Origin: an uncultured Planctomycetales bacterium | GTDB lineage: Bacteria; Omnitrophota; Gorgyraeia; Zapsychrales; GWA2-47-8 | Reading direction: 5' to 3' | Assembly: GCA_964364715.1 (NCBI GenBank) | Contig: CAYING010000003.1 | Coordinates: 3,764 to 67,763 of the forward strand | Length of the DNA: 64,000 bases | Shown: piece after piece, positions 12,435 to 25,830 of the stretch | How the letters are laid out: each line of letters begins with the position of its first letter | Position numbering within the stretch: the stretch's first letter is position 1 | Translations under genes and position numbers: made by a program | Notes under the pieces: model-generated | Seen by the model: the letters and a program-made list of their open reading frames with translations, nothing else | Databases searched by the model: none | What the model was told of the DNA's origin: nothing

Positions 12435-12517
12435 AAAAATTTTTCTCCCGAAAGTTGGTAGTATCCTAACAAAATGCCATTAAGAATTCAACAGGAAAAG
12501 ACCTTTCCGACAAAAAT

Positions 12518-14014
12518 CTAACTCCCGGAATGGCACTCTGAACAGTGCATTTCCTTCCACCCCTCATCTGTTTCATCCGGATGGCGAAACGGAAGACCGT
12601 CCGCGTTCTTCTCAGTGGCCCCGACGGGCCCCTGTTCAATAATGGAATGGCACTGATTGCAATCCTTGGACAAAACCTTCCCGTCCGATGTCTTATGCTT
12701 CTCATCATGGCACCGGAAGCATCCCGGGAAAATAAAATGCCCGATATTATCTGGGTACGCCTTCCACGATGCCTTCATCCGGGGAAAAATATTCATCTTA
12801 TAAATTTCCAAGATCGATGCCACCGCCTGGTCGACCAAGCTCCGGTTCTGAGAAAAAAATTCCGGATATTTTTTCTGATAAAATTTCTCGATTTTTTCTT
12901 TGATCGCGGATTCTGCCGCCTCTTCGGTCTCATACTCTGCGGATAAAACCTTCAACGCCTCCCGCTTGATATACGGGATGGAGTTGTCGATCGCGCCGCG
13001 AGCCAGCACCTCGTTGAGCGTTTTGTCCGGAGAGTTGTAAATGTGCGCAGGACGGTTATGACAGTCCATGCAATCCATCTGACGCAGTTCTCCCTCCGGC
13101 GGTTTCTCCGCAGAATATTTTGAGTCCTCATCAACGTAGATGTCCTCTTTGCCGTCGGCACGGACGACTTTGATCCAGGGAATCGTTTGCCGCTTTGCAT
13201 CTGTGGCGACATAATACACCTTGCTGTTGATATTCATATGCCAATGGATCCCCTCCTTCTTTCCATACGGAGGGTTCCCGCCGCCCACCAGCATCAGCAT
13301 CCTGCTCTTCCAGGCGGTATTTTTCTCATCGGACAAAAAATAAGTTTTATCTGCTTCAATTGCGCCGAAAAACTGCTGCGGCCAATGGCACTTTTCGCAG
13401 GTCTCTTGAGCCGGACGAAGATTTTTGACCGGGGTCTCTATCGGACGGCTATATTTCTTGAAAATGACAGAATAAACCTGATATGTCCCGGCAAGTTTCG
13501 ATCTGACGTACCAATCCACCCCATGCCCGATATGACAATGAACGCACGCCACCCGGGCATGCGGTGAATTCTGATAGGTCGTGAATTCCGGATGCATGAC
13601 TTGATGGCATGTCTTCCCGCAAAACGTCACCGATTCGGTAAATTCATAAGCCCGGTAACTCCCCACCGCCGTGAACAGCAAAAACGCCGTCACAACACAG
13701 ATTGTGACATACGCGATCCTCTGATGCATGGGATTATTGAAATCAATGTGAGGAAAACGCCGGGCATGACCGCGCTTGACCCTTAGCTTGCGCTCGAGCA
13801 TGGCGCCGATGGGGATCAGCAATAAAGAAATGATGAGGAAAATCGGAGCGATTAAATACGTAACCACCCCAAGGTACGGGTTCGCCTCTTTATTGCGGAA
13901 GTCTAGAATGAAAAATACGAGAATGACGGAAAAGCAGAAGCTGGAAAGGATGCCTCCGGCGACGCTGACCCAATTTTGAAAGAGACTCGGTTGTTTATTT
14001 TCGTCGGACTGCAT
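12518..14014 (-). CDS. Membrane-anchored heptaheme cytochrome c, NapC/NrfH-like quinol dehydrogenase type
   Basis: Seven CXXCH motifs (CGKTCH, CVHCH, CEKCH, CMDCH, CFRCH, CNQCH, CSECH). N-terminal TM helices lie immediately before the first heme motif. Confidence 0.8.
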   Translation of the reverse strand: MQSDENKQPSLFQNWVSVAGGILSSFCFSVILVFFILDFRNKEANPYLGVVTYLIAPIFLIISLLLIPIGAMLERKLRVKRGHARRFPHIDFNNPMHQRIAYVTICVVTAFLLFTAVGSYRAYEFTESVTFCGKTCHQVMHPEFTTYQNSPHARVACVHCHIGHGVDWYVRSKLAGTYQVYSVIFKKYSRPIETPVKNLRPAQETCEKCHWPQQFFGAIEADKTYFLSDEKNTAWKSRMLMLVGGGNPPYGKKEGIHWHMNINSKVYYVATDAKRQTIPWIKVVRADGKEDIYVDEDSKYSAEKPPEGELRQMDCMDCHNRPAHIYNSPDKTLNEVLARGAIDNSIPYIKREALKVLSAEYETEEAAESAIKEKIEKFYQKKYPEFFSQNRSLVDQAVASILEIYKMNIFPRMKASWKAYPDNIGHFIFPGCFRCHDEKHKTSDGKVLSKDCNQCHSIIEQGPVGATEKNADGLPFRHPDETDEGWKEMHCSECHSGS

Positions 14015-14092
14015 AAAAAGAGGCCTGCTAAATTCTCGCCGGCCGCGTCAAACTGGCGGGATCGTGAAAAGGGCAGAAATTCCGCTAAAAGT

Positions 14093-15529
14093 TTATTTAT
14101 ACCGTTCCTGAAACTGCTTTTGAGCTTCAAGCCGTTTCGCCGCCTCGGCCGGATCCATTTTGTTGATATACCATTTATGGTCCGCAGATTCCAGGACTTC
14201 CGATAATTTATTTTTTAACATCTGGGCTGCTTCTGATTCTTTCTTGTCCTTGGAGTCGATGTTCTTTTCAACAATCGCCTCAAGCGCCGGGATAAATTCG
14301 GCATAGAACCTTTTGGCGACCTCGTAGGTCCCGTGCCAATGCGTATAATCCGGCCCCATCATAGACGCGCCGTGCCTTGCCCTACGCCCTTCATGATGCC
14401 ACAGCTCATACCAGATAAAATCGATCTCATTACTGAATTCTACCGGCTTCAATAATGGCTGCGCCAATTTCATCAGCTCCTGACCCGGCCTGGCAAATTT
14501 CTCAGTATACAATTCCAACAGGCTGTCATATTGCAGATAAAAGCTGTCCACATAATTGGCGCTGTGGCATTCTGTGCAGACTTTCTTCATGTTCTTCCGG
14601 CGGGTTTCCCAGGACACGTCTTTCCCGGGGAGTCCCATCTTGCCATCGGAAACTTCCGGACGGATAGAAATAGCCGGCCGATTGTTCCAACTGATACGCA
14701 TCCCGACGTCGTGGGTGACATCCATATCCGGGGTCGCGCTCATATGGCAAGTCGCGCACGTCGGAGCAGCATTATAATCTTCGCCGAGAACCCATTTCTC
14801 ATTATCTAAATTCATTTTATGTTTATTCGCATGAAAGGCAATGCCGTGCTTCGATTCTTCGTAGATCTCGATCTGCGGATGGTCCGGCCCCATATGGCAT
14901 TTTCCGCAATTCTCCGGATTTCTGGCCTGTTCAACGGAAAATTTGTGCCGGGAATGGCATGCCGAGCAGGAACCTTCGGACCCATCGGGATTGATCCGGC
15001 CGATCCCGGTATTGGGCCACGTGGCCGGGTCCAGGGAACCGTCCTTCAAAACCTTAACTTCGGAGCCGTGGCATTGCCAGCAGCCGTTAACGGCAGCGGC
15101 GGAGACACCTTCCGGAAAACCAGGCGTTTTCATCATAAGATTGCCCTCGACGATATCCGCGAGGCGATTGTCCAAGGAGCCAAGAATCCTGGCGCCTTTG
15201 GAATGGTGAGACGAATTGAATTCGTTGACCTCTTTAGCATGGCAGCGGGAGCAATCCTGAGGCGAAACAATTATGGAGATGATCTCGCCGTAATGGTCAA
15301 TGGCATCCTTATCGGATTTATCGGCCTGATGGCATTCATAACATCCGACATTGCCCCTAAAATGCTTGCTGGCACCCCACTGCTGAACGATAACGGGCGT
15401 CTCTTCCCGGTGGCATTCAAGACAATCCTTGGACTTGACCGACAACTCGTCAAGACCGTAGGCACTGCGCCATACCAGAACAAAAGTTAATAATAAAAAA
15501 CATGCCCCCGAAAAGAAATATTTTTTCAT
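14093..15529 (-). CDS. Octaheme cytochrome c, hydroxylamine oxidoreductase (HAO)-like
   Basis: Eight CXXCH motifs (CLECH, CYECH, CSRCH, CWQCH, CSACH, CGKCH, CATCH, CTECH). Size ~480 aa. The signal peptide starts at the internal Met MKKYFFSGACFLLL; the track's 50-aa N-terminal extension is rejected. Confidence 0.8.
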   Translation of the reverse strand: MKKYFFSGACFLLLTFVLVWRSAYGLDELSVKSKDCLECHREETPVIVQQWGASKHFRGNVGCYECHQADKSDKDAIDHYGEIISIIVSPQDCSRCHAKEVNEFNSSHHSKGARILGSLDNRLADIVEGNLMMKTPGFPEGVSAAAVNGCWQCHGSEVKVLKDGSLDPATWPNTGIGRINPDGSEGSCSACHSRHKFSVEQARNPENCGKCHMGPDHPQIEIYEESKHGIAFHANKHKMNLDNEKWVLGEDYNAAPTCATCHMSATPDMDVTHDVGMRISWNNRPAISIRPEVSDGKMGLPGKDVSWETRRKNMKKVCTECHSANYVDSFYLQYDSLLELYTEKFARPGQELMKLAQPLLKPVEFSNEIDFIWYELWHHEGRRARHGASMMGPDYTHWHGTYEVAKRFYAEFIPALEAIVEKNIDSKDKKESEAAQMLKNKLSEVLESADHKWYINKMDPAEAAKRLEAQKQFQERYK

Positions 15530-15572
15530 AATCGTTCCGTCCATTGTTTTCCCGTCTAAATTTCTACGATAG

Positions 15573-16130
15573 TTACTCTTTCGGCACCGGGTGCTTGATC
15601 TGTTCGAGTCTTTCCTTGAAATCAAAAGATTTATATGTCGGGGCTTCGGGGTTGTGGCATTTCTTGCAAGTATTTTCATCAGGAATTACCAGGCCCTGCG
15701 CGACCGCTTCTTCCTCATCTTCCATAACGCTTTTCTTCATATAATCCTTGCCGGCGCCGTGACAGGATTCACAGGAAACCCCTTCCTCGACGGTAATCGC
15801 CTCGGTGGCCTTTGCTTCCGTGAAATTATAAGCCGTTGAATGGCATTTCAGGCATTTGCCGCTTGTGGACGGATCATCAATACCTAACTTAGCGGCCTGC
15901 TCTTTGGCCTCCGGGGTCTTTAAGGTCTCAAACGCTTTGGCATGTTTTGACTCCTGCCAGATTTTAAACTGTTCCCCCTGCTCCGGTTTTTTATGGCACA
16001 TGGAACATTTTGTAACTCCCACAAATTCGTGTTCCGCCTGGACGGCGGACATCTCAGCGCCCCACATAAGCATAACTGCACATCCCCCAAAAACTAATAC
16101 GGCATTAATGACTGTTAAGCCTCGTTTCAT
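15573..16130 (-). CDS. Tetraheme cytochrome c
   Basis: Four CXXCH motifs (CSMCH, CLKCH, CESCH, CKKCH). N-terminal signal/anchor. Confidence 0.8.
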   Translation of the reverse strand: MKRGLTVINAVLVFGGCAVMLMWGAEMSAVQAEHEFVGVTKCSMCHKKPEQGEQFKIWQESKHAKAFETLKTPEAKEQAAKLGIDDPSTSGKCLKCHSTAYNFTEAKATEAITVEEGVSCESCHGAGKDYMKKSVMEDEEEAVAQGLVIPDENTCKKCHNPEAPTYKSFDFKERLEQIKHPVPKE

Positions 16131-16161
16131 TTTTTATCCTCCTGTATTCCGGTGAATTAAT

Positions 16162-17313
16162 TTATTTTTCCTGAATCCCTTGATCCGGCTGCGCTGAGTG
16201 CGGAATGCCAAAAATATCAAATTTATATTCTTTGCCGAAAATTTTTTGTTTACTCTCCGAAATAAACCCTAAAACACCAAATACCAATAAAGACAACAAA
16301 ACCAAGACCCCTATGGTCACCGAGATCGGGCGTTTGAACGGATGCCGCTGAGGGCTTCTATCCAAAAAAGGCCACAATAAAAGCAAGACAGGCGCCAGAC
16401 CGACGACAAAAATCCCCAAAAGTTTAGAAAAATATTTCAAAACATGATACATCGGCAAAAAATACCACTCCGGCTTTATCCCCTCGGGAGTGCTTAACGG
16501 ATCGGCCTTTTCGCCCAATTCAAAAGGAGCCAGGATCGATAACGTGATCAAGATACCGAGCAGAATAAAAAAGACGACCCCTTCCTTGAGCATATGGTGC
16601 GGGAAGAACGGGATCCCGTCTTTTACCTTAGTCTCTTTCTCATCCCCCACCGGGTCCATCGTCGCGATCCCCTGAAACCTCACCAAAAATAGATGAATGG
16701 CAATCAAAAAGAAAACCGTCCAGGGAAGGATGATGACGTGGATCACAAAGAAACGGGAAAGAGTTTCTCCGCCGACCGACGTGCCCCCCCGCATCAATGT
16801 CTTCATCCATTCTCCGACAAACGGAATAGCGCCGGCGATCTCTGTCCCGACCGTCGTTGCCCAATACGCCAACTGGTTCCACGGCAGAAGATATCCCGTA
16901 AACCCGAAGACTAACGTCAAAACGAACAGAAAAACACCAATAAGCCAGGTTATTTCCCGCGGTCTTTTGAACGATCCGGTAAAAAATGTGCGCAGCATAT
17001 GCAGAAAGACAACGATCACCATCAAATTCGCCCCCCAGGCATGGACCTGACGGTATAACCACCCCATATACGGTGTGGTCATAATAAATTTAATGCTCTC
17101 AAAGGCTTCATCGACGGTGGGACGGTAATAGATCAAGAGCAATATCCCGGTCAGGACCTGGCTGACAAAAAGGAATAAGGACATGCTTCCGAGGGTATGA
17201 AACCAACCGGTACTTCTGGGAAGCGGTTTTTTGATCTGGTACTGCAGCGACCCTTCGATCTTCTCCAGATCGTAGCGCTTCGACAACCATTCTCTTAAAT
17301 TAAATTTCAGCAT
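16162..17313 (-). CDS. Cytochrome b (fused cytochrome b6 / subunit IV type) of a Rieske/cytochrome b complex
   Basis: Conserved cytochrome b segments: GWFHTLGSMSLFLFVSQVLTGILL, bis-His helix pairs, and PEWYFLPMY of the C-terminal portion. Confidence 0.9.
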   Translation of the reverse strand: MLKFNLREWLSKRYDLEKIEGSLQYQIKKPLPRSTGWFHTLGSMSLFLFVSQVLTGILLLIYYRPTVDEAFESIKFIMTTPYMGWLYRQVHAWGANLMVIVVFLHMLRTFFTGSFKRPREITWLIGVFLFVLTLVFGFTGYLLPWNQLAYWATTVGTEIAGAIPFVGEWMKTLMRGGTSVGGETLSRFFVIHVIILPWTVFFLIAIHLFLVRFQGIATMDPVGDEKETKVKDGIPFFPHHMLKEGVVFFILLGILITLSILAPFELGEKADPLSTPEGIKPEWYFLPMYHVLKYFSKLLGIFVVGLAPVLLLLWPFLDRSPQRHPFKRPISVTIGVLVLLSLLVFGVLGFISESKQKIFGKEYKFDIFGIPHSAQPDQGIQEK

Positions 17314-17345
17314 AAAAATTTTTGTTCCCTTCGCGGAAATTTCGG

Positions 17346-17816
17346 TTACACCTTCACCATGACTCTGCCGTTGACAACGCTCACTTCATGCGGCGGGAGC
17401 GGGCGCGGCGGAGGCCCTGCCACAACTTTTCCATCAAGATCAAAAAGGCCCGCATGGCAAGGGCAGATGATCTCCCGTTTCTTACCGTCCCACTCGACCA
17501 AACACCCTAAATGGGTGCAGATGGCAGAATAGGCCTTAAACCCTTGCGGCGTTCGGATAACCAGAATAGCGCTGCCTGCCACAATTACTTTTTTCCCTCC
17601 CCAGGCCGGAATATCATCCTCGGCGCCGACATCACTTAAACCCCCGGCCGGACCCCGACGGGTCACCGGCCAAAGATAAGCTAAGGCCGGGGCCACCATC
17701 CCGGCCAAGGTCGTGAACAGCCCCAGCCGGATGATCCATCCCAGAAAATCCCTGCGGCTCAAATTTTCCTTTTCCAAAACTGCGGTTTTTACGTGCCCCG
17801 GATTTTCATTTACCAT
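17346..17816 (-). CDS. Rieske [2Fe-2S] iron-sulfur protein
   Basis: Rieske boxes CTHLGC and CPCHAG. Canonical twin-arginine signal SRRDFLG. An internal start (MVNENPGH) abuts the upstream cytochrome gene. Confidence 0.85.
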   Translation of the reverse strand: MVNENPGHVKTAVLEKENLSRRDFLGWIIRLGLFTTLAGMVAPALAYLWPVTRRGPAGGLSDVGAEDDIPAWGGKKVIVAGSAILVIRTPQGFKAYSAICTHLGCLVEWDGKKREIICPCHAGLFDLDGKVVAGPPPRPLPPHEVSVVNGRVMVKV

Positions 17817-17817
17817 A

Positions 17818-19068: not shown

Positions 19069-19113
19069 AAAAGCAAATTCACAAGGCCTTCCTTAAAATA
19101 AAGACCTTTGGCT

Positions 19114-19896
19114 TCAAGCATAACTATGCAATGTTGAAAAAAACAAATTTACCCCAATGTAGGTAAAAAGAATAACTACAAACCCCAACATTGTTAAAAG
19201 AGCGGCATTAAGACCGCGTAAATTCCGTGTATGGCGCAAATGAAGACAGCCGGCATAGATCAACCACGTTGTTAATGCCCATATTTCTTTGGCATCCCAA
19301 TTCCAGAATCTTCCCCAGCTGATACTGGCCCATATAGAACCGCAGGCCAACCCCACCGTTAAGAAAGGGAACCCCCTGTCAAGCACTTGGAAAATCATCC
19401 CCTCAAGACTATCCAATAAAGCCTTATTATTACCGCGATAGCGCAAAATATTGATGATATAAACAAGGCTCAAACCAAAGGCTATCGCGAAACTGGCATA
19501 AGCAATAAGATAAGATCCCACATGAAAATAGAGCCAGCCGCTTCTCAATGACGGCATCAGCGGACGTATGGCATCATTAATAAAAAGGGAGAATACCAGC
19601 AAACACAACGCCACTACAATCCCCAGCAATTTGATCCAGCGGAACCCCAACCGGAACGCGGCATAAAAGCTCAACATCACAATCAGCCAGGCAAAAACGA
19701 TCAATGTTTCATACGTATCGGTTAATGGAAAACGCTGCGCTTCAATAGCTCGTTTGACAATCAAATAGCCGTGCAATCCCCACCCTGTCATCAAAAAAGA
19801 GCCTTCAATAACAGTAAAAAAATTTTCCCTAACCTTCCCGGCTATGAGGAAAAAAACCAGGGACAAAAAATAGAGGACAATGACTCCTATCATCAT
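19114..19896 (-). CDS. ccsA: Cytochrome c biogenesis protein CcsA (second, canonical-length copy)
   Basis: WWD motif WGRFWNWDAKEIWAL. Eight TM segments. Confidence 0.85.
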   Translation of the reverse strand: MMIGVIVLYFLSLVFFLIAGKVRENFFTVIEGSFLMTGWGLHGYLIVKRAIEAQRFPLTDTYETLIVFAWLIVMLSFYAAFRLGFRWIKLLGIVVALCLLVFSLFINDAIRPLMPSLRSGWLYFHVGSYLIAYASFAIAFGLSLVYIINILRYRGNNKALLDSLEGMIFQVLDRGFPFLTVGLACGSIWASISWGRFWNWDAKEIWALTTWLIYAGCLHLRHTRNLRGLNAALLTMLGFVVILFTYIGVNLFFSTLHSYA

Positions 19897-21236
19897 AACC
19901 CTTCCATCCTCCGCTCTATGTCCTTAACAATTTTTTGTATTTCCTTCTCAAAGGAAAATACATTTTTGCACTTCATGGCTCGAGCGCTAACATACGAGGT
20001 CATGTTTGAAATATCTTCTTTAACAGTGATAACCAAACCGCGATAAAACCGGTAACTGCTTAAAAAAGATCCGGCAACAAGCAAAATCAGCCCAAAATAT
20101 GTTATATACTCGCCGGGATTCTTCGCGTATTTTATGCCGGAGGTATACCGGGACTTAATGCCGTCCAGCATGAACCTCAATTTCTCCGGAGTCTCCGTGG
20201 ATCCTGTATGAGGCATCACTCCGCGGAAAACCCACTGCTCCCGAGCCGGCAAAGAAGAATTGGCCGGTGAATAAATCAAAAGATAACCGGCCGGATTCCT
20301 TAATATATGACTTCGGGTTGAAGGCTGGTTATTCTCATCGATAAAAAAATCCGGGATAAAATTTTTAACCTTTAAAGCGATATTCAACTCGGGAACAGCG
20401 ACCAGATTATCAACACCCATCGTCAAAATCTTAACCGGCTGACTTTCATTTTCACGGAAGATGGCAATGCGTAACTCGTCAATATCAAAACTAAATCTCT
20501 GCTGATAAAGCCTAACACCTTCGATTCTTAAGGGGCCATTGACTTTTAATGTGCGCCATTCTATGGGTTTTCCCGGACGGTTGATTCTTAAGCGGCTGGC
20601 ATAATCATCAGTTTTTTCTTTAGCGGCGCTTGGGATAACCGCGAATTTTTCCAGCGTTAATAAAGCGTCCGTCCCCTCCAACGGGATCGTTTCTCCTTCG
20701 CGAATGGAAAAATCATAAAACCTTCCGCCCCCGGCCGTAATTATGCCGGCTAACAACAATACCGCAACAGCCAGATGAACGATATGTGAACCGAAGATAT
20801 TAAATTTTGCTTTTTCATAAAAAAATCTCTCTTCGCCTTGGCCTGGCTCACAATAAGCCGTCTTACGATAACGCCATTGACTTAAGACCTGGTGAATATG
20901 CTCTGTGACAAGCTGTCTATTTTTTTTCTTAAAAGAAAAATTAAAAACTTCTTTCTCCGCTAACGAAGAGAAGAAATTGCGGAAGGATTCCTTATCTTGT
21001 ACAGAAGAAAATATTCTCTTATGGTATTGATAAAATTTGATGAGTCCCGGCCATCGTCTGACCGAACAATACCCCATCATCAAGACGATATAACACAAAT
21101 AGCCCAAAAACAAACGGTTTTGGAAAACCGCTCTGAAGGAAGGAGAAACGCCCAGCAGACTGATCAGTCCGAGAGAAAGGAGCAGGAAGATCGTTAAGGG
21201 GACAGATAGAAAGATCCTATCAAAAAATTTAAGCAT
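19893..21236 (-). CDS. ccsB: Cytochrome c biogenesis protein CcsB/ResB (second copy)
   Basis: ResB-like topology. 4-nt overlap with the downstream ccsA. Confidence 0.75.
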   Translation of the reverse strand: MLKFFDRIFLSVPLTIFLLLSLGLISLLGVSPSFRAVFQNRLFLGYLCYIVLMMGYCSVRRWPGLIKFYQYHKRIFSSVQDKESFRNFFSSLAEKEVFNFSFKKKNRQLVTEHIHQVLSQWRYRKTAYCEPGQGEERFFYEKAKFNIFGSHIVHLAVAVLLLAGIITAGGGRFYDFSIREGETIPLEGTDALLTLEKFAVIPSAAKEKTDDYASRLRINRPGKPIEWRTLKVNGPLRIEGVRLYQQRFSFDIDELRIAIFRENESQPVKILTMGVDNLVAVPELNIALKVKNFIPDFFIDENNQPSTRSHILRNPAGYLLIYSPANSSLPAREQWVFRGVMPHTGSTETPEKLRFMLDGIKSRYTSGIKYAKNPGEYITYFGLILLVAGSFLSSYRFYRGLVITVKEDISNMTSYVSARAMKCKNVFSFEKEIQKIVKDIERRMEGL

Positions 21237-21272
21237 CGAGTTACTATTAAACCATACTTTGTCCCCGATTAA

Positions 21273-23312
21273 TTAAAATTTTCTGTTATAAACGACTTCC
21301 GCGCCTACCCCATGATAATCATCAAAATCGTTATAACCGCCGTAGCCGACGGTCTTTGCATTAAAATTGTAGTATTCAAGACGGGCCGAAATGCTTGCAT
21401 CATCATTTAAACTATGGTTAGCGCTGAGCCAGAGTTTATCAAGGCTATTTCTGATCGTTCCATCAACTTCGTTATGTTGCAACCCAAAACCGGTTGACGT
21501 CTTATTCGTAAATCGATAACTTCCGCCGAGTAAGCCGACATAACGATTGACTTTATAATCAAAAGCCTTACCCCCCTGATAGAAGGTGGAATTGGTGGAA
21601 ATCCCCTCTCCGGGAGTATACAAACCCTGAAGTTCCCCCATCAGCATGAATGTAAGGGTAAATTTATCCGTTAAAAGACCCATCAAATTTCCTGAAATGG
21701 CATTGCGCATCATTTGCATGCCATTTTGACCTTGTTGACGTGCATACCCCAAGTCATTATCTTCATAAATATACTGCAGGCCGCCGTTCCATTTTTTAGT
21801 AATGCTGGCGTTGTAGCCTAAGGTGACTTGATCAATTGTCTGATCCGAACTCCCCATATAACCGGGATAGGATGCCGGCAAATTGTCCCTTACGTTTTCG
21901 TATTTTCTTCTTTTATCGGCATGTTTATACTTCGCCGTTACCTTTGATTTATCATTTAGCCTGGTTGAAAGTAGAAACGTATTAATAATATCGTTGTTCC
22001 GGATATTGGTTTCGCGGTCGATGGTCCTTTCTGCCCCTGTTACCGCATAGTCGCTAACCATTTCGTAACTGCTGATATCGGCCAGCTCGCTCCAATTCAA
22101 CTTTCTTTGTTCCAACTCCAGGGTATAAGACAGGTTGGTCTTTTTTATGCCGGTATAGGCCACAGAGAAAGTTTCCCCATACTGGTATTCCGACTGGTCG
22201 GACTCGGCTTTCCTCACCACAGTCCCCCCTCTAAACCCGTCTCCTTCAGCTTCCGTTTCCGCGTTCTCAAAACGCGTATTAAACCCGATACGGAGGTCTT
22301 TTATCAAACTATCTAAATTCACCAACCCCAAATTAAGGATATTGGCCTTCCGCTCATTACTTGTATCCGGGTTAATGAATTGATTCAAAGTGGTCCCGGA
22401 CGCGGCGACCCCGCCGGATATCGGCCGTAATTCCGTACGGGTCGTCCTGTTCTTTAAATCCTGAAAAAGATAGTTGGTCGCAAGATACGTCTTTTCAGAT
22501 AGAAAACTGTTATAGCTGGCATGCGTTAATGATTCCTGAAATTGCGGCTCATCGTAGTAGTTTCTTTGTTGGTTTAATGCCCCATTGGAATACCGCGAGG
22601 AAAGGATGGCCTGATCATCATGGTAAAGTTCGATCTGCTGTTTGAGGGCCACATTATGTTTTTCATTGATCTGCTTGGAGAGCTGAACAAAAGCCTTGTC
22701 GCTTACGCCATCGACATCCGCCGCGATCACACTGGAGCGCAGCGTGTTCAATCCGGTGAAAGCAACCTCCTCACCGCGCAACAATGTTTCCTGTCCATTA
22801 CGTGACCAGCGGGTATATCCGATGGTCACATCAGGAAGACTATCCAGTTTAATCCCGTATTCCACATCCGTATCAAACCGGTCCGTATAGGTATGATTAT
22901 CTTTCTTTTCAGCCGTTTCCCTTCCAAGCCCATAACTTGCCGGATCCCATGGTTCGTTGGAACCGTCATAATAGCGGCGGGTCAGCCGGGTATTCAGTTT
23001 AAGAAAATAAGAATCTTCTTTTGCTAAATCCAAATTCAATCCATAATCACCATCATAAAGAGCATGAGCTTCAATAGACAAAATGGCATCTTTAATATTG
23101 CCGCTCAGCATTAATTCCTCAAGCCCGCCGGAATAGTTATCGGTGACATAATTATCTTCCCTAAAGCGGCCCTCATCGCCGTCAATGACCATAAAACGGG
23201 AACCGATCTTGAAGGAATCCAAGGTCAAAGATGATTTTGCGTGGGCGACATCCCAAGACAAAAATACCGCCATACAAAGGAACAAATAGTGTAATATTAT
23301 TTTTCTATACAT
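21273..23312 (-). CDS. Outer-membrane beta-barrel protein (679 aa), candidate porin partner of the adjacent periplasmic multiheme cytochrome (MtrB/PioB-like role)
   Basis: Signal peptide. Alternating amphipathic beta-strand pattern throughout. C-terminal aromatic residue (…VVYNRKF). Lies immediately downstream of a periplasmic heptaheme cytochrome. Confidence 0.55.
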   Translation of the reverse strand: MYRKIILHYLFLCMAVFLSWDVAHAKSSLTLDSFKIGSRFMVIDGDEGRFREDNYVTDNYSGGLEELMLSGNIKDAILSIEAHALYDGDYGLNLDLAKEDSYFLKLNTRLTRRYYDGSNEPWDPASYGLGRETAEKKDNHTYTDRFDTDVEYGIKLDSLPDVTIGYTRWSRNGQETLLRGEEVAFTGLNTLRSSVIAADVDGVSDKAFVQLSKQINEKHNVALKQQIELYHDDQAILSSRYSNGALNQQRNYYDEPQFQESLTHASYNSFLSEKTYLATNYLFQDLKNRTTRTELRPISGGVAASGTTLNQFINPDTSNERKANILNLGLVNLDSLIKDLRIGFNTRFENAETEAEGDGFRGGTVVRKAESDQSEYQYGETFSVAYTGIKKTNLSYTLELEQRKLNWSELADISSYEMVSDYAVTGAERTIDRETNIRNNDIINTFLLSTRLNDKSKVTAKYKHADKRRKYENVRDNLPASYPGYMGSSDQTIDQVTLGYNASITKKWNGGLQYIYEDNDLGYARQQGQNGMQMMRNAISGNLMGLLTDKFTLTFMLMGELQGLYTPGEGISTNSTFYQGGKAFDYKVNRYVGLLGGSYRFTNKTSTGFGLQHNEVDGTIRNSLDKLWLSANHSLNDDASISARLEYYNFNAKTVGYGGYNDFDDYHGVGAEVVYNRKF

Positions 23313-23327
23313 GTTGCCCCCCTTCGT

Positions 23328-24149
23328 CTATCGATTAAGCGTTTTCCAAATATTTGAGCCATGCACGGCCCGGTGGTGGTCAATACATTCCTGACCCTTC
23401 CCAATATAATAATCTCCGCCTGATCCTGCTTTCGTACCATGCTGAATAGCGCCGATAGTGCCGGTTGACGTATTAAAAGAAGGTTCCCAGTGGCAACGCA
23501 GACACAAATTCGCCTGATCCGCGACCAGCATCTTATCGTAAACAGCGCCATGCGGGTTATGGCACGTCTGACATCCTTCACGCATAACGTCGTGTTCAAA
23601 CACAAACGGCCCCTTCATTTCCTTATGACATTTAAAGCACGATTGATCGGATTTCTGAAGAGAGACCGTATTCATCGTTTCAAGTTCCGTCCCATGAGGG
23701 TTGTGGCAGTCTGTACACTTCATGCGTCCCTCCACCACCGGATGATGGTACTGTAAAAGAAATTCTCCTTTTTTATCCATATGGCAACTGAAGCAATTCT
23801 CCGGATCATAGCGGACAATATCTTTTTTGCTTTGACTCTCCGCGTGTTTACTTCCCGCTCCGTGACAACTTTCACAACCTCCGCCCAAAACATCCTCCTT
23901 CTCCCCGAGAACTCGATAGTGAGAAGTTAAAGAAAACCGTTGAGCTTGTTCCTCATGACACGTGGCACAGGTCTCGGTGCCGACATACGTTGCCCCCTTG
24001 ATCGCCGGAGGCATAATCCCCTCACCCGAGAAAGAATTCTTCAAAAATACCGGGGCAAATAAAAACAAAGCGGTCAACAGACAAAGAGAAACTATTGCCA
24101 TCCGCTTGTGATGAGACCGCCCCGTTCCTGATTGAATCGTTTTGTCCAT
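23328..24149 (-). CDS. Periplasmic heptaheme cytochrome c (MtrA/DmsE-like electron shuttle candidate)
   Basis: Seven CXXCH motifs in 273 aa. N-terminal signal peptide. Confidence 0.8.
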   Translation of the reverse strand: MDKTIQSGTGRSHHKRMAIVSLCLLTALFLFAPVFLKNSFSGEGIMPPAIKGATYVGTETCATCHEEQAQRFSLTSHYRVLGEKEDVLGGGCESCHGAGSKHAESQSKKDIVRYDPENCFSCHMDKKGEFLLQYHHPVVEGRMKCTDCHNPHGTELETMNTVSLQKSDQSCFKCHKEMKGPFVFEHDVMREGCQTCHNPHGAVYDKMLVADQANLCLRCHWEPSFNTSTGTIGAIQHGTKAGSGGDYYIGKGQECIDHHRAVHGSNIWKTLNR

Positions 24150-24184
24150 ATTGACCCCCTTGTTCGCTTCCTATAAAAAGTTGC

Positions 24185-25222
24185 TTAGACTCCGACTTCC
24201 TCCATCGTGCTGATCTTTGCCAATTTCCCGTAAAATGCCGCGATCTTCTCTTGAATCATCGCTTCCACCTGCTTCACACATAACGAACGCTGCTGAACAC
24301 TCCCCTCAACGACCTTATCCAAATCATCGATCTCCTTTAAAATAACATTGGGGACATCCGCGACAGCCGGATCGATATTCCGCGGAATGGAAATATCGAT
24401 GCACAACAACTTTTTTTCACGGCAGGACATGATCTGCGCGATCAAATCCTTTTCAATCAGATAATGCGCACAGCTGGCCGAACAAATACACACATCCGCC
24501 TGTTCCAAGATTTCTTTGATCTGCCAGAACCCGGCGGCAACCCCGCCGTATTGCCGGGCTAGATCTTCGGCTTTTTCCTGGCTTCGGTTCATGACAAAAA
24601 TCTTTCCGATGCCCTTTTGCTGAAACTGACTGGCCGCCAATTTTCCCATCTTCCCGGCGCCCAGGATCAAAACGGATTTATCATTTAATTGACCCAAAAT
24701 ATTTTCCGCCATTTTTATGGCCGCCCAGCTGATCGAAGAACCGCCGGCATCGATCTCTGTTTCAGCCCTGGCCTTCTTCCCGATCCGGATGGCAAGGTTG
24801 GTCAGGATATTGAACTGTTTGCCCAGCATCCCTGCCGTGCGGCTCAATTCCGTCGCGACCTTCACCTGTCCCAAGATCTGTTTTTCGCCCAGGATAAGAG
24901 AATCCAGCCCGGTGGAAACAGAAAAAAGATGCCGAATGGCATCTTTCTCTTTTTTTACATAAAAATATTTCATAAGGTCATCGGAAAAATGGAGGTCCTT
25001 AATCTTAAAAAGCGACTTAACCAGAAGCGCCGGATCATCATCCAGAAGATGCGCGTAGATCTCAGTGCGGTTGCAGGTCGACAAGATCAGCGCTTCCACG
25101 ACCGAAGACTCGTTCTTTAAATGGGAAAGCAATAATTCTCTCTCAACGGTCCTCAAAAAGAATTTTTCTCTTATTTCAACCGGGCACTTTTTATGGCTGA
25201 CGCCGACAACGCACAGATGCAT
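24185..25222 (-). CDS. hemA: Glutamyl-tRNA reductase HemA
   Basis: Catalytic motif LSTCNRTEIY. NADPH-binding LILGAGKMGKLAA. Internal Met start (MHLCVVGVSHK) preferred over the track start at 25243. Confidence 0.85.
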   Translation of the reverse strand: MHLCVVGVSHKKCPVEIREKFFLRTVERELLLSHLKNESSVVEALILSTCNRTEIYAHLLDDDPALLVKSLFKIKDLHFSDDLMKYFYVKKEKDAIRHLFSVSTGLDSLILGEKQILGQVKVATELSRTAGMLGKQFNILTNLAIRIGKKARAETEIDAGGSSISWAAIKMAENILGQLNDKSVLILGAGKMGKLAASQFQQKGIGKIFVMNRSQEKAEDLARQYGGVAAGFWQIKEILEQADVCICSASCAHYLIEKDLIAQIMSCREKKLLCIDISIPRNIDPAVADVPNVILKEIDDLDKVVEGSVQQRSLCVKQVEAMIQEKIAAFYGKLAKISTMEEVGV

Positions 25223-25249
25223 TCTTCCCTCTCCTAGGTTCAATTAGGT

Positions 25250-25771
25250 TCAATGGTGAACGCTTAACTTCGAAATCAGGACATCCTGCTCTTCCGCCTT
25301 CAACCGGCGCATCATCTTGTAAATATTCTGCCCCTCGACTTGCAGATGATTGCGGACCAAACACACCAGATAGATCCCGTGGTCCCTCAATTTGGCGGCC
25401 AATTTTTGCTCTCCGGTGTCGGTCTTGGCCTTCTCAGCTTTTAAAAATAGCACTTCCAGCGCCTTAAATTCTTCTCTGATCTCAGCATGTTCCCCCTTAA
25501 AATACTCGAGAATCGGCTCATACTTAGGGATATGCTTTTGAAAAAACGGGAAAAGTTTATCGTCGTCAAACTTCATATGCGGGAAGAGATCCTTCTTTAT
25601 CGACCGTACGCTGCGGAATACATTCCGGATATTGCGCCGCACAAAGATCTTCCCTTCGTATTGAAGGTTGTTGAGCGCTGCGTAAAGTTTATTGACCTCT
25701 TTAAGCATTTCGGAATGTTCCGACTCTAAGCCCTGGATGGCTTTTTCTATCCTTGGATTCCGGCTGACCAT
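25250..25771 (-). CDS. Hemerythrin-like (HHE cation-binding domain) protein, paralog 1
   Basis: Four His/carboxylate helix motifs (ESEHSEM, HMKFDDDKLFP, GEHAEIREEF, RNHLQVEG). Paralogous to 59929..60567. Confidence 0.5.
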   Translation of the reverse strand: MVSRNPRIEKAIQGLESEHSEMLKEVNKLYAALNNLQYEGKIFVRRNIRNVFRSVRSIKKDLFPHMKFDDDKLFPFFQKHIPKYEPILEYFKGEHAEIREEFKALEVLFLKAEKAKTDTGEQKLAAKLRDHGIYLVCLVRNHLQVEGQNIYKMMRRLKAEEQDVLISKLSVHH

Positions 25772-25814
25772 AGAATTCTTTTAATTTTATTCTACTCAAA
25801 CCGGAGCTTTTGTC

Positions 25815-25830
25815 TGTGACTGCGGTCACA
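25815..25830. promoter_or_regulatory. Perfect CRP-type palindrome TGTGAC-N4-GTCACA between the Crp/Fnr gene and the hemerythrin-like gene
   Basis: tgtgactgcggtcaca, centred about 52 nt upstream of the ATG at 25771. It matches the TGTGA-N6-TCACA architecture. Confidence 0.5.

What the first reader, a model, noticed from the sequence alone, without database searches (positions are those of the whole stretch)
12518..25830. Single-strand mega-operon: Rieske/cytochrome b complex with a 9-heme c1 replacement, HAO-like octaheme, NapC-like heptaheme, porin-cytochrome pair and two ccsBA sets
About 13 kb of contiguous minus-strand genes, many with start/stop overlaps, encode the following in transcriptional order:
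- a Crp/Fnr regulator, a hemerythrin-like protein and HemA;
- a periplasmic 7-heme cytochrome and a 679-aa outer-membrane beta-barrel;
- CcsB and CcsA;
- a membrane-anchored 9-heme cytochrome c;
- a Rieske protein and cytochrome b;
- a 4-heme cytochrome c;
- an 8-heme HAO-like cytochrome;
- a 7-heme NapC/NrfH-like membrane cytochrome;
- a repeat lipoprotein;
- a second CcsB and CcsA.
A bc-type complex whose c1 is replaced by a multiheme protein, and which carries an HAO-family octaheme, is known essentially only from anammox-type Rieske/cytochrome b gene clusters. Here it is additionally coupled to an outer-membrane conduit and to its own heme synthesis and maturation genes. That suggests a self-contained quinol-linked N-oxide (nitrite/hydroxylamine/NO) or extracellular electron-transfer module not described as such.
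Basis: partly seen in the sequence, partly recalled or inferred. Interest (0 to 1): 0.85.

Follow-up and report, generated by a model that had tools for sequence, protein, structure and literature searches.

The report
Modular cytochrome respiratory operon in Omnitrophota
This is an 18-kb operon from a groundwater Omnitrophota bacterium that joins known cytochrome modules (a quinol-oxidising bc-type complex, an ImcH-type cytochrome, an outer-membrane electron conduit and a nitrite-reductase-type octaheme enzyme) in an order not yet described; it is a new combination, not a new kind of machine.

Summary
The components:
- A b6-type Rieske/cytochrome b pair whose c subunit is a membrane-anchored 9-heme cytochrome.
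- A c554-like tetraheme.
- An εHao/IhOCC-type octaheme.
- A heptaheme with the exact ImcH architecture (3 TM, CX3CH, 6 CXXCH).
- An MtrA-like heptaheme beside a 26-strand MtrB-like barrel.
- HemA and two System II maturation sets.
- A Crp-type regulator with a conserved perfect TGTGA-N6-TCACA operator.

The claim that this is essentially anammox-only fails:
- The 9-heme/Rieske/cyt b trio is widespread across phyla.
- Rieske/cyt b next to εHao was published for Caldithrix abyssi.
- Geobacter's ext cluster combines porin, multihemes and Rieske/cyt b.
- The HAO here belongs to a different clade from the anammox Rieske/cyt b-associated HAO.

The closest relative has the same operon without HAO, so HAO is an inserted cassette. 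The outer-membrane pair plus the first CcsBA set is a second, compositionally distinct cassette.

Best reading: a mosaic, branched quinol-to-periplasm chain with two outlets, nitrite/hydroxylamine reduction and extracellular electron transfer. The direction of electron flow is unresolved. New variant of known kinds; moderate interest.

The parts
25815..25830 (.). Perfect palindrome TGTGACTGCGGTCACA (TGTGA-N6-TCACA) in the gap between the Crp gene and the hemerythrin gene. Candidate operator for the adjacent regulator.
   Evidence: the only perfect match in the window. There are 5 sites with at most 1 mismatch against 1.04 expected, and all 5 lie inside 9052-25830; relative L169 has perfect sites in the Crp/hemerythrin and hemerythrin/HemA gaps. 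The regulator's recognition helix reads RETVTR, as in CRP (the CRP comparison is from memory).
25841..26560 (-). Crp/Fnr-family regulator with an internal Cys motif (GDTCACNPG...WSCS...DC).
   Evidence: Pfam cNMP_binding, HTH_Crp_2 and Crp. The same Cys motif occurs in the second Crp paralogue of the window.
25250..25771 (-). Hemerythrin HHE-domain protein, possibly an O2/NO/iron sensor or repair protein.
   Evidence: PF01814, 45.6 bits. Conserved at this position in L169 and L171.
24185..25243 (-). HemA, glutamyl-tRNA reductase, the first committed step of heme synthesis. Likely start at 25222.
   Evidence: GlutR_N and Shikimate_DH domains. An AGGAGAGGG ribosome-binding site lies upstream of M8. 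Conserved at the head of all related operons.
23328..24149 (-). Periplasmic heptaheme cytochrome of the MtrA/DmsE lineage, aligned to the C-terminal half of MtrA.
   Evidence: 7 CXXCH. TIGR03508 DmsE family at 168.6 bits, below the cutoff of 192. PDB 6R2Q chain A, which I take from memory to be MtrA (the depositor's label reads 'Cystathionine beta-synthase'), E 1.8e-30.
21273..23312 (-). Outer-membrane 26-strand beta-barrel, MtrB-like. Has a signal peptide and a C-terminal Phe.
   Evidence: AF2 model with pLDDT 78 and 26 strands. Best Foldseek match is 6R2Q chain B of the Mtr complex (MtrB by my reading of the entry), E 3e-16, TM 0.62/0.65, against about 0.42 for TonB-dependent receptors. No Pfam hit for the protein itself; 2 of 29 distant family members hit PF11854 MtrB_PioB.
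19893..21236 (-). ResB/CcsB, System II cytochrome c maturation, set 1.
   Evidence: PF05140, 90 bits.
19114..19896 (-). CcsA/ResC, set 1. With the three genes upstream it forms a low-GC3 cassette (19114-24149).
   Evidence: PF01578, 140 bits. GC3 is 0.455-0.484 here against 0.53-0.64 in the rest of the operon. The cassette is 69-85% identical to L171 and L172, while the flanking genes are about 50% identical.
17818..19047 (-). Nonaheme cytochrome c with a signal peptide, a helical stalk and a C-terminal TM anchor. It takes the c1-type position of the Rieske/cyt b complex.
   Evidence: 9 CXXCH and a TM helix at residues 381-399 of the 416-aa ORF. Adjacent to Rieske and cyt b in most of the 84 loci searched with it: cyt b in 68, Rieske in 57, many of the rest being short contigs.
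17346..17852 (-). Rieske 2Fe-2S protein with a Tat motif (SRRDFL) and the CTHLGC...CPCH boxes.
   Evidence: PF00355. Best NCBIfam match is the b6f iron-sulfur subunit. Motifs read from the sequence.
16162..17313 (-). Cytochrome b, a fusion of the b6-type part and the subunit IV part, with 7 predicted TM helices and a PEWY motif.
   Evidence: Cytochrome_B plus Cytochrom_B_C. Cytochrome b6 at 234 bits and ExtP at 231 bits. His spacings of x13 (helix B) and x14 (helix D) read.
15573..16130 (-). Periplasmic tetraheme cytochrome, c554-like; the likely carrier between the membrane modules and the outlets.
   Evidence: PF13435, 66.7 bits. Best solved relative is cytochrome c554, entry 1BVB (the Nitrosomonas protein, by my knowledge), E 2e-9. 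Lies near the bc module in 13 of 84 loci.
14093..15529 (-). εHao/IhOCC-type octaheme cytochrome of the HAO family; a periplasmic, probably reductive N-oxide enzyme. An inserted cassette.
   Evidence: 8 CXXCH, PF13447 at 91.9 bits. PDB 4QO5, E 7e-54. The NeHAO Asp267/His268 pair is conserved as D216/H217 (residues counted from the start at 15529), and NeHAO Tyr334 aligns to the invariant R284. Absent from L169, and window 13998-15558 has no counterpart there.
12518..14014 (-). ImcH-type inner-membrane heptaheme cytochrome, a putative quinol oxidase of the NapC/NirT relationship.
   Evidence: 3 TM helices; CX3CH at residue 132 directly after TM3; 6 CXXCH; 498 aa. PF03264 at 34 bits. Motif and TM positions match the Omnitrophica ImcH homologues listed in PMC6295460 Table S3.
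11658..12434 (-). Putative lipoprotein with three D-x-[IV]-[HR]-AGL-[MK] repeats. Function unknown.
   Evidence: Lipobox-like LFLGC; no Pfam or NCBIfam hit. Conserved after the ImcH-like gene in L169 at 56% identity.
10484..11653 (-). ResB-like protein, System II set 2.
   Evidence: PF05140, partial match, 48 bits. 69% identical in L169.
8560..10515 (-). Large CcsA (651 aa) with an N-terminal extension of about 350 residues; set 2, and the last gene of the unit.
   Evidence: PF01578 at 84 bits and TIGR03144 at 134 bits. 70% identical in L169.
8504..8522 (-). Terminator-like hairpin with a T-run immediately after the last gene.
   Evidence: It is a consensus match only.

Best explanation
The locus is one operon, or a few tightly packed units, of 16 genes (8560-26560, minus strand) from a groundwater Omnitrophota bacterium. 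It is assembled from exchangeable modules and encodes a branched, all-cytochrome respiratory chain.

Components identified from sequence:
- Two inner-membrane modules that interact with the quinol pool: a b6-type Rieske/cytochrome b complex whose c subunit is a C-terminally anchored nonaheme cytochrome, and an ImcH-type heptaheme.
- A c554-like tetraheme in the periplasm.
- Two outlets: a soluble εHao-type octaheme enzyme, and an MtrA-like heptaheme encoded beside a 26-strand MtrB-like outer-membrane barrel.
- HemA and two System II (ResB/CcsA) sets that supply heme and attach it.
- A CRP-type regulator with a conserved TGTGA-N6-TCACA operator, and a hemerythrin, at the head.

Inferred path: menaquinol is oxidised by the Rieske/cyt b complex (Q-cycle, proton-motive) and/or by the ImcH-type protein. 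Electrons pass through the nonaheme subunit and the c554-like carrier. They then go either to the octaheme enzyme, which reduces nitrite or hydroxylamine to ammonium, or through the outer-membrane conduit to extracellular acceptors such as Fe(III), Mn(IV) or humics.

The conserved core is the conduit, the Rieske/cyt b/9-heme unit, c554 and ImcH. The HAO gene is an accessory cassette added in this genome. The second CcsBA set, always found with the ImcH-like gene in the closest relatives, may serve its unusual CX3CH site; this last point is speculative.
For: - Component identities.
- ImcH architecture.
- Conserved core without HAO: L169/L170 carry Crp-hemerythrin-HemA-7heme-barrel-9heme-Rieske-cytb-c554-ImcH-lipoprotein-ResB-CcsA. 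L090 carries HemA-7heme-barrel-ImcH-9heme-Rieske-cytb.
- The same association recurs in a more distant lineage (L110, L166, L168, and partly the short L167): Crp, 7heme, barrel, Rieske, cytb and multiheme, with an ImcH-like gene also present in L166 and L168.
- HAO joined to this operon in three different arrangements: the window, L001 (with NrfBCD-like genes) and L172 (directly after cyt b).
- The window lacks the NrfD-type partner that accompanies this HAO in 58 of 84 loci. HAO here therefore needs another donor, and the neighbouring Rieske/cyt b-c554 or ImcH modules are the obvious candidates.
- Mosaic origin: blastn and tblastn identities and the GC3 step.
- Operator conserved in position in L169.
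- No internal intergenic terminator.
- Published support: εHAOs lacking the cross-link Tyr reduce nitrite and hydroxylamine (PMC8042395). Quinol to Rieske/cyt b to εHao was proposed for Caldithrix. ImcH is described as a quinol oxidase for extracellular electron transfer.
Against: - There is no expression, protein or activity data, so every electron-transfer step is inferred from homology and gene order.
- The direction of electron flow cannot be read from sequence.
- No MtrC/OmcA-type extracellular cytochrome is encoded in the window. That fits the uptake-type MtoAB/PioAB systems as well as it fits reduction.
- The MtrA-like protein has 7 rather than 10 hemes and scores below the DmsE-family cutoff. 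The barrel has no sequence-level match to MtrB.
- Similarity to Geobacter ImcH itself was not measured.
- Gaps of 66-83 nt could hide internal promoters, and four of the five CRP-box-like sites lie inside genes.
Confidence: 0.6

Rival explanations
1. Electron-uptake chain. The MtrAB-like conduit, which like MtoAB/PioAB has no extracellular MtrC, brings electrons in from Fe(II), minerals, a cathode-like surface or a partner cell. The c554-like carrier passes them downhill to the octaheme enzyme (nitrite to ammonium) and uphill to the quinone pool through ImcH or a reversed Rieske/cyt b complex.
For: - No MtrC-like gene in the window.
- The MtrA-plus-barrel-only layout is the Mto/Pio type (from established knowledge; the literature listed covers Mto).
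- The source is oligotrophic groundwater: the exact 9-heme protein was found in the Hainich H32 sample.
- HAO provides a periplasmic high-potential sink. A Rieske/cyt b complex in the same operon could support reverse electron flow, as in acidophilic iron oxidisers (from my knowledge).
Against: - The 2018 survey found ImcH homologues only in Fe(III) reducers and reads them as quinol oxidases (PMC6295460).
- The core operon exists without HAO, so nitrite is not the obligatory sink.
- No carbon-fixation or Fe(II)-oxidation marker was seen in the window.
Confidence: 0.2
2. One reading: an anammox-type Rieske/cytochrome b complex in which the HAO-like octaheme is an integral catalytic subunit, forming a new dedicated N-oxide module.
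For: - HAO lies about 1.2 kb downstream of the cyt b gene, with only the c554-like gene between them.
- HAO directly follows cyt b in L172.
- HAO recurs with this operon in 3 of the 6 variants seen.
- A Rieske/cyt b complex with a bound HAO-like protein exists in Kuenenia (PMC12485887).
Against: - The closest relative lacks HAO at 85% nucleotide identity across the Rieske/cyt b core.
- The HAO is from a different clade than HAOr/Kuste4574.
- It is a soluble protein with a signal peptide.
- Its family normally travels with its own NrfCD-type quinol dehydrogenase.
- Only one of the 80 species-genome loci (L050) has Rieske/cyt b near HAO.
- The 9-heme/Rieske/cyt b trio stands alone in other phyla.
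Confidence: 0.08
3. Co-location without functional coupling. The Rieske/cyt b/9-heme unit is simply the organism's general complex III. The conduit cassette and HAO are independent acquisitions that landed in a cytochrome 'island' because they share heme supply and maturation, not an electron path.
For: - Mosaic origin of the segments.
- L171 carries the Crp-hemerythrin-HemA-7heme-barrel-ResB-CcsA half alone.
- The trio occurs alone elsewhere.
- HAO usually has its own quinol dehydrogenase.
Against: - The conduit, Rieske/cyt b and ImcH-like genes recur together in two divergent lineages and in several gene orders. Chance co-location does not predict that.
- The window's HAO has lost its usual NrfCD partner.
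- The spacing is tight, there is no internal terminator, and there is one conserved operator.
Confidence: 0.12

Closest known systems
Geobacter sulfurreducens extHIJKLMNOPQS cluster (GSU2940-2930)
   Same: One conserved cluster combines an outer-membrane porin-like protein, several multiheme cytochromes, a Rieske protein, a b6-type cytochrome b and a subunit-IV-like protein (PMC5877670). The window's cytochrome b scores 231 bits against the ExtP model.
   Different: The score is below the ExtP cutoff of 290. ExtI is a 45-kDa porin, not a 26-strand MtrB-like barrel. The ext cluster has a rhodanese and a selenocysteine cytochrome, and lacks an ImcH-like gene, HAO, HemA and Ccs genes.
Caldithrix abyssi nap-Rieske/cyt b-εHao locus (Cabys_2564-2556)
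   Same: Rieske and cytochrome b genes lie directly beside an εHao-type octaheme. The published proposal is quinol to Rieske/cyt b to a tetraheme carrier to εHao, for nitrite ammonification (PMC5317091).
   Different: In Caldithrix the cluster is built around NapA nitrate reductase. No multiheme c subunit, outer-membrane conduit, ImcH-like protein or maturation genes are described there.
Anammox Rieske/cytochrome b complexes with an HAO-like subunit (Kuenenia kuste4569-4574)
   Same: A Rieske/cyt b unit encoded with multiheme cytochromes and an HAO-family octaheme that is thought to be reductive.
   Different: Different HAO clade: the window protein matches 6H5L (HAOr) at E 1e-19 but IhOCC at 7e-54. 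No NAD(P)-oxidoreductase subunit was found here (that feature is recalled from memory). HAO is dispensable in the closest relative. The system is periplasmic, not in an anammoxosome.
MtrAB / MtoAB / PioAB porin-cytochrome conduits
   Same: A periplasmic multiheme of the MtrA/DmsE lineage is encoded immediately upstream of a 26-strand barrel, whose best structural match is MtrB.
   Different: Seven hemes instead of ten. No Pfam MtrB_PioB match for this barrel. No MtrC partner. The pair travels with its own ResB/CcsA genes as a cassette.
Geobacter ImcH (inner-membrane heptaheme quinol oxidase)
   Same: About 500 aa, three N-terminal TM helices, CX3CH next to the membrane, six CXXCH, and NapC/NirT homology.
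   Different: The 2018 survey found no mtrAB/mtoAB genes next to imcH. Here, and in L090, L166, L168, L169 and L172, it shares a locus with an MtrAB-like pair and a Rieske/cyt b complex.
εHao of Epsilonproteobacteria and IhOCC of Ignicoccus hospitalis (reductive HAO-family octahemes)
   Same: IhOCC (4QO5) is the best solved relative. The window protein is 63% identical to the homologue in an Epsilonproteobacteria MAG (L075). The distal Asp-His pair is conserved.
   Different: The usual partner operon (tetraheme-NrfC-NrfD) is missing here. The cross-link Tyr status and the activity were not determined.
Nitrifier HAO-c554-cM552 module
   Same: An HAO-family enzyme, a c554-like tetraheme and a NapC/NirT-related membrane cytochrome are encoded side by side.
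   Different: The membrane partner is a heptaheme ImcH type, not the tetraheme cM552. The c554-like and ImcH-like genes are conserved without HAO. The expected direction is reductive.

Membership tests
Rieske/cytochrome b (bc1/b6f) complexes | Rieske protein with the CTHLGC and CPCH cluster-binding boxes and a Tat signal | tested here: met
   Motifs and SRRDFL read from the translation. PF00355 at 48.6 bits.
Rieske/cytochrome b (bc1/b6f) complexes | Cytochrome b with two His pairs in helices B and D and a PEWY motif | tested here: met
   H-x13-H, H-x14-H and PEWY read. PF00033 at 188 bits and PF00032 at 69.7 bits. The x14 spacing is the b6 type (from established knowledge).
Rieske/cytochrome b (bc1/b6f) complexes | Monoheme cytochrome c1 or cytochrome f as the third redox subunit | tested here: not met
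   The gene in that position encodes a nonaheme cytochrome with a C-terminal TM anchor. This variant is widespread.
Anammox-type Rieske/cyt b complex with an HAO subunit | The HAO-like subunit belongs to the HAOr/Kuste4574 clade | tested here: not met
   6H5L (HAOr) at E 1e-19 to 5e-23, against IhOCC at 7e-54 to 3e-65. Kuste4574 is described as a close HAOr homologue.
Anammox-type Rieske/cyt b complex with an HAO subunit | The HAO gene is a constant member of the Rieske/cyt b operon | tested here: not met
   Absent from L169/L170 and L090. Present in the window, L001 and L172.
HAO family (octaheme cytochrome c) | Eight CXXCH motifs and a Pfam PF13447 match above threshold | tested here: met
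   8 motifs. PF13447 at 91.9 bits against a cutoff of 21.9.
HAO family (octaheme cytochrome c) | Distal Asp-His pair at the catalytic heme 4 | tested here: met
   NeHAO D267/H268 align with D216/H217, which are invariant in the 20-sequence family alignment.
Oxidative HAO (P460 enzymes) | Cross-linking tyrosine (NeHAO Tyr467) from the neighbouring subunit | tested here: inconclusive
   The C-terminal region aligns only to IhOCC, not to NeHAO, HOX or HDH. Absence is inferred from clade placement and from the literature.
εHao-type nitrite/hydroxylamine reductases | Nitrite and hydroxylamine reduction to ammonium in vitro | not testable with these tools
   Shown for four epsilonproteobacterial enzymes, as cited in PMC8042395. 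The window protein is 63% identical to an Epsilonproteobacteria MAG homologue, which is not one of the characterised enzymes.
MtrAB/MtoAB/PioAB porin-cytochrome | Periplasmic decaheme of the MtrA/DmsE family | tested here: inconclusive
   Related: 6R2Q chain A at E 1.8e-30. But only 7 hemes, and TIGR03508 at 168.6 bits is below the cutoff of 192.2.
MtrAB/MtoAB/PioAB porin-cytochrome | 26-strand outer-membrane barrel encoded next to the cytochrome | tested here: met
   26 strands in the AF2 model (pLDDT 78, pTM 0.71). Best Foldseek match is 6R2Q chain B, TM 0.62/0.65. The genes are 15 nt apart. This rests on a predicted model only.
MtrAB/MtoAB/PioAB porin-cytochrome | Sequence membership in Pfam MtrB_PioB (PF11854) | tested here: not met
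   No Pfam hit. A family profile finds no MtrB in the PDB. Only 2 of 29 distant family members hit PF11854.
ImcH family | About 495-519 aa, three N-terminal TM helices, an atypical CX3CH next to the TM domain, then six CXXCH (definition from PMC6295460) | tested here: met
   498 aa. TM helices at 18-36, 54-72 and 100-118. CGKTCH at residue 132. CXXCH at 157, 206, 315, 432, 452 and 491. Spacing matches the Omnitrophica entries of Table S3.
ImcH family | Significant sequence similarity to G. sulfurreducens ImcH (GSU3259) | not tested
Only NapC/NirT (PF03264, 34 bits) and NrfH (48 bits) similarity was measured.
System II cytochrome c maturation (ResB/CcsB + CcsA/ResC) | Paired ResB-domain and CcsA-domain membrane proteins | tested here: met
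   Set 1: PF05140 at 90 bits and PF01578 at 140 bits. Set 2: PF05140 at 48 bits (partial) and PF01578 at 84 bits, plus TIGR03144 at 134 bits, below its cutoff of 187.6.
CRP-type regulators (TGTGA-N6-TCACA binders) | R-E-x-x-x-R recognition helix and a cognate palindrome upstream of the target | tested here: met
   RETVTR in the HTH. Perfect site at 25815-25830, conserved in L169. Binding itself was not tested.

The most novel reading that the evidence does not exclude
The operon may be an electron-uptake machine. The MtrAB-like conduit would draw electrons from Fe(II) minerals, or from a partner or host cell, since many Omnitrophota are thought to be host-dependent (from my knowledge). The c554-like carrier would deliver them to the εHao-type enzyme for nitrite reduction, while ImcH and/or a reversed Rieske/cyt b complex charge the quinone pool. 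That would be an enzymatic route for nitrite-dependent oxidation of extracellular electron donors in an uncultured phylum.
Probability: 0.12. Interest if true: 0.8.

Novelty: new variant of a known kind. Interest (0 to 1): 0.45.

Why it matters
Omnitrophota are abundant in groundwater and sediments, are uncultured, and their energy metabolism is poorly understood. This operon family suggests that one groundwater clade has a complete trans-envelope cytochrome chain, from the quinol pool to the outer membrane. It also shows that this clade swaps outlet modules, such as a nitrite-reductase-type octaheme or alternative outer-membrane cassettes, at fixed slots.

The locus gives concrete targets for metatranscriptomic and biochemical tests of extracellular electron transfer and HAO-type nitrite ammonification in this phylum. 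It also corrects the impression that pairing a Rieske/cyt b complex with an HAO-family enzyme is specific to anammox bacteria. Finally, the repeated co-occurrence of ImcH-like genes with a multiheme Rieske/cyt b complex and an MtrAB-like pair was not seen in the 2018 ImcH survey, and it may bear on how ImcH works.

Tried and rejected
- **Exact look-ups of window proteins.** The HAO, cytochrome b and barrel proteins were not on record. The source was identified only through the 9-heme protein, found in an ENA Hainich H32 groundwater assembly.
- **Cross-linking Tyr of HAO.** Neither a C-terminal fragment nor the family profile aligned the C-terminal domain to NeHAO, HOX or HDH, so the question stays open.
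- **Sequence link from the barrel to MtrB.** Not found with Pfam or with a family profile against the PDB. Only the predicted fold and two distant relatives connect them.
- **FNR-box scan (TTGAT-N4-ATCAA).** 57 matches against 49 ± 7 expected, so not enriched. Rejected in favour of the CRP-type box.
- **A nitrate reductase in the window to support the N-oxide reading.** The molybdoenzyme at 55754-59011 is TtrA/PhsA-like, not Nar or Nap, so it gives no support.
- **Promoter consensus scan.** No more hits than in shuffled sequence.
- **Dibrova et al. 2013** (multiheme subunits in bc complexes) could not be retrieved. It is cited only through PMC5317091.
- **'Candidatus Sungbacteria' as the host.** That is the label of the 86%-identical 9-heme homologue P0123. 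I rejected it as a likely binning error, because the other named relatives are Omnitrophota.

Full report
**What is in the sequence**

The region holds sixteen closely spaced minus-strand genes from 26560 down to 8560. Pfam and NCBIfam scans and motif counts give the following, in transcriptional order:
- A Crp/Fnr-family regulator.
- A hemerythrin-domain protein.
- HemA (glutamyl-tRNA reductase).
- A 273-aa cytochrome with 7 CXXCH.
- A 679-aa protein with a signal peptide and no family hit.
- ResB, then CcsA.
- A cytochrome with 9 CXXCH and a C-terminal transmembrane helix.
- A Rieske protein with a Tat motif and the CTHLGC/CPCH boxes.
- A 383-aa cytochrome b that fuses the b6 and subunit-IV parts. 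It has His spacings of x13 and x14, a PEWY motif and seven predicted helices.
- A c554-like tetraheme.
- An octaheme PF13447 protein.
- A 498-aa NapC/NirT-related cytochrome with three N-terminal helices, one CX3CH and six CXXCH.
- A lipoprotein-like repeat protein.
- A ResB-like protein, then a 651-aa CcsA.

Its coordinates (12518-25830) cut off the first gene and the last three. The octaheme ORF really starts at 15544 or 15529, not 15679. True overlaps are few. Nearly every gene of the 64-kb window is on the minus strand, so strand bias alone does not define an operon.

No terminator-like site lies in an intergenic gap inside the block, and one follows the last gene. All c-type cytochrome ORFs of the window are in this block.

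**Source organism**

The exact 9-heme protein occurs in an ENA assembly of Hainich groundwater, well H32. The closest named relatives of the HAO and 9-heme proteins are Omnitrophota MAGs.

**The Rieske/cytochrome b unit**

The 9-heme protein has 2921 detectable homologues. The trio of 9-heme, Rieske and cytochrome b stands alone, among housekeeping genes, in Coraliomargarita parva (Verrucomicrobiota) and in a Bdellovibrio MAG.

Among the 84 loci searched by tblastn (the 80 kept from that scan plus four fetched earlier), cytochrome b was adjacent in 68 and Rieske in 57. Many of the remainder are short contigs. Two gene orders occur.

A multiheme cytochrome in place of c1 is therefore a widespread bc-complex variant and not an anammox peculiarity. 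The Caldithrix paper already cites the idea that multihemes were the early acceptors of Rieske proteins.

**The octaheme protein**

It belongs to the HAO family. Its best solved relative is 4QO5, which I recognise from memory as the Ignicoccus octaheme IhOCC (E 7e-54; 3e-65 with a family profile). N. europaea HAO and the anammox HAOr (6H5L) follow at about 1e-19 to 1e-23. The distal Asp-His pair of the catalytic heme is conserved. NeHAO Tyr334 aligns to an invariant Arg.

The family is very conserved: more than 8000 proteins passed E 1e-5, and the 120 best are mostly 67-80% identical. It is present in at least 598 stretches of species-representative genomes across many phyla, including an epsilonproteobacterial MAG at 63% identity.

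Its usual context is a tetraheme-NrfC-NrfD-HAO operon, found in 57-58 of 84 loci. Only one of the 80 genome loci (L050, a Phycisphaerae MAG) has Rieske/cyt b nearby. The window has no NrfD homologue.

εHAOs lacking the cross-linking tyrosine reduce nitrite and hydroxylamine (PMC8042395). Most non-anammox HAO homologues are predicted to be reductive (PMC12758564). I could not align the C-terminal domain to enzymes that carry the Tyr, so the reductive assignment is inferred and not shown.

The anammox Rieske/cyt b-associated Kuste4574 is a close homologue of HAOr (PMC12485887). That is a different clade from the protein here.

**The 'NapC-like heptaheme'**

It matches the published definition of ImcH homologues: 495-519 aa, three N-terminal helices, CX3CH next to the membrane, then six CXXCH (PMC6295460). 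Its motif and helix positions coincide, within 2-4 residues, with the Omnitrophica entries in that paper's Table S3. Direct similarity to Geobacter ImcH was not measured.

**The porin-cytochrome pair**

The heptaheme aligns to chain A of the Shewanella Mtr complex, which I take to be MtrA (6R2Q_A, E 1.8e-30). It scores just under the DmsE-family cutoff.

The 679-aa protein models as a 26-strand barrel (pLDDT 78). Its best structural match is chain B of the same entry, MtrB (TM 0.62/0.65), well ahead of the 22-strand TonB-dependent receptors at about 0.42. It ends in Phe.

There is no sequence-level match to MtrB. Two of 29 distant family members do hit Pfam MtrB_PioB. No MtrC-like gene is present.

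**Comparative anatomy, the decisive evidence**

- The closest relative, L169/L170 (cytochrome b 94%, Rieske 88%, 9-heme 86%, ImcH-like 76% identical), has the same operon: Crp-hemerythrin-HemA-7heme-barrel-9heme-Rieske-cytb-c554-ImcH-lipoprotein-ResB-CcsA. It lacks HAO and the first ResB/CcsA pair.
- Window 13998-15558 (HAO) has no counterpart in L169.
- L001 carries NrfBCD-like genes plus HAO in the same slot.
- L172 has HAO directly after cytochrome b.
- L090 has no HAO.
- L171 carries only the front half, Crp-hemerythrin-HemA-7heme-barrel-ResB-CcsA.
- The four genes 19114-24149 (heptaheme, barrel, ResB1, CcsA1) are 69-85% identical to L171 and L172. The heptaheme and barrel are only 43% and 22% identical to their L169 counterparts, and L169 has no ResB1/CcsA1 pair. 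These four genes also have a lower GC3, 0.455-0.484 against 0.53-0.64.
- A more distant lineage (L110, L166, L168, and partly the short L167) again links Crp, a heptaheme, a barrel of this family, Rieske, cytochrome b and a multiheme. L166 and L168 also carry an ImcH-like gene.

The window operon is therefore a mosaic of exchangeable modules. The conserved core is conduit + Rieske/cyt b/9-heme + c554 + ImcH. HAO is an accessory that has joined this core in at least three different ways.

**Regulation**

A perfect TGTGA-N6-TCACA palindrome lies between the Crp and hemerythrin genes (25815-25830). Five sites with at most one mismatch occur in the window against 1.04 expected, and all five lie within the operon. 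L169 has perfect sites in the corresponding intergenic gaps, although its regulator is only 47% identical. The regulator's recognition helix (RETVTR) is of the CRP type, by my recollection of the CRP helix.

**Mechanism**

Shown by the evidence above: the identities and predicted locations of the parts, and their conserved linkage.

Inferred: quinol oxidation by the Rieske/cyt b complex and/or the ImcH-type protein. Transfer through the nonaheme subunit and the c554-like carrier. Delivery either to the octaheme enzyme (nitrite or hydroxylamine to ammonium) or through the MtrAB-like conduit to the outside.

Because this HAO has lost its usual NrfCD partner, the neighbouring modules are its most plausible donors. 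The opposite direction, electron uptake as in MtoAB/PioAB systems with HAO as the sink, cannot be excluded and is the main rival.

**Comparison with known systems, and novelty**

Each module belongs to a known kind. Pairwise combinations are also known:
- Rieske/cyt b with εHao in Caldithrix.
- Rieske/cyt b with HAO-like proteins in anammox bacteria.
- Porin, multihemes and Rieske/cyt b in the Geobacter ext cluster.
- HAO, c554 and a NapC-type cytochrome in nitrifiers (from established knowledge).

The full combination, and the linkage of ImcH-like genes with an MtrAB-like pair, was reported as not observed in 2018. I found no description of it. The library holds open-access papers only, so this is not proof of absence.

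I rate the locus a new variant of known kinds with moderate interest. It is useful for understanding Omnitrophota energy metabolism and the modular evolution of cytochrome chains.

Noticed in passing
window 53725-61419 (minus strand): A second cluster begins with the same regulator pair. It runs Crp paralogue (60718-61419), weak hemerythrin-like protein (59929-60645), TtrB/DsrO-like 4Fe-4S protein (59088-59972), 1085-aa TtrA/PhsA-like molybdopterin oxidoreductase (55754-59011), Porin_5 protein (54406-55917) and a 220-aa small barrel-like protein. No membrane quinol-dehydrogenase subunit is encoded, so it might draw electrons from the periplasmic cytochrome pool made by the main operon.
   Followed up: partly
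window 53289-53441 (minus strand): A Moco (molybdenum cofactor) riboswitch, 52.6 bits against a gathering score of 36. It lies upstream of MoaA (52351-53343), TatC (51619-52350) and a MOSC-domain gene, just downstream of the molybdoenzyme cluster.
   Followed up: no
window 25841-26560 and 60718-61419: Both Crp-family paralogues share an internal four-Cys motif (GDTCACNPGxxxWSCSxSAQAxxDC) inside the effector domain. This suggests a metal, Fe-S or redox-sensing subfamily. Their recognition helices differ (RETVTR against RVTVAR).
   Followed up: no
window 9052, 10571, 15758, 23861 (inside genes): Four further TGTGA-N6-TCACA-like sites, each with one mismatch, all fall inside the operon and none elsewhere in the 64 kb. 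The site at 15758 lies about 230 nt upstream of the HAO start, and the one at 10571 about 70 nt upstream of the second CcsA start. They could be internal regulatory sites or chance matches.
   Followed up: partly
window 19114-24149: There is a compositional step: GC3 is 0.455-0.484 across the heptaheme, barrel, ResB1 and CcsA1 genes, against 0.53-0.64 in the rest of the operon. This matches the evidence that the four genes move together as a cassette (L171, L172).
   Followed up: yes
proteins P0302, P0304, P0325, P0327, P0338, P0346, P0349 and others: Eleven of 29 distant members of the barrel family, which are 780-850 aa long, carry a PSCyt1 (Planctomycete cytochrome c) domain; from their extra length I assume it is N-terminal. 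A monoheme cytochrome fused to a large MtrB-like barrel resembles Cyc2-type fused cytochrome-porins, but with a much bigger barrel.
   Followed up: no
L107 1-10000 (metagenome contig Ga0185342_1000573): A distant HAO-like gene (29% identical to the window protein) sits beside ResB, CcsA, Rieske, cytochrome b, a 9-heme homologue and a c554-like gene. This is another independent HAO/Rieske-cyt b neighbourhood, possibly anammox-like.
   Followed up: no
window 26641-31245 (minus strand): Immediately upstream of the operon lie a 1191-aa single-chain protein that I read from its translation as a pyruvate:ferredoxin oxidoreductase (not scanned against any family library) and a dihydroorotate-dehydrogenase-like protein (PF01180). 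If the first assignment is right it is consistent with an anaerobic lifestyle. No link to the operon was examined.
   Followed up: no
protein P0123 (OGZ98740.1): The 86%-identical 9-heme homologue is labelled 'Candidatus Sungbacteria' in NCBI. Its contig (L169) carries the full Omnitrophota-type operon, so the label looks like a binning error.
   Followed up: partly
L001 13367-21446: In the groundwater relative, the HAO and ImcH-like genes are followed directly by amtB, a P-II gene, glutamine synthetase type III, an NAD synthase and glutamate synthase. This neighbourhood hints that ammonium from HAO may feed assimilation. The window has MsrA, a HAD hydrolase and a GH94 enzyme there instead.
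   Followed up: partly
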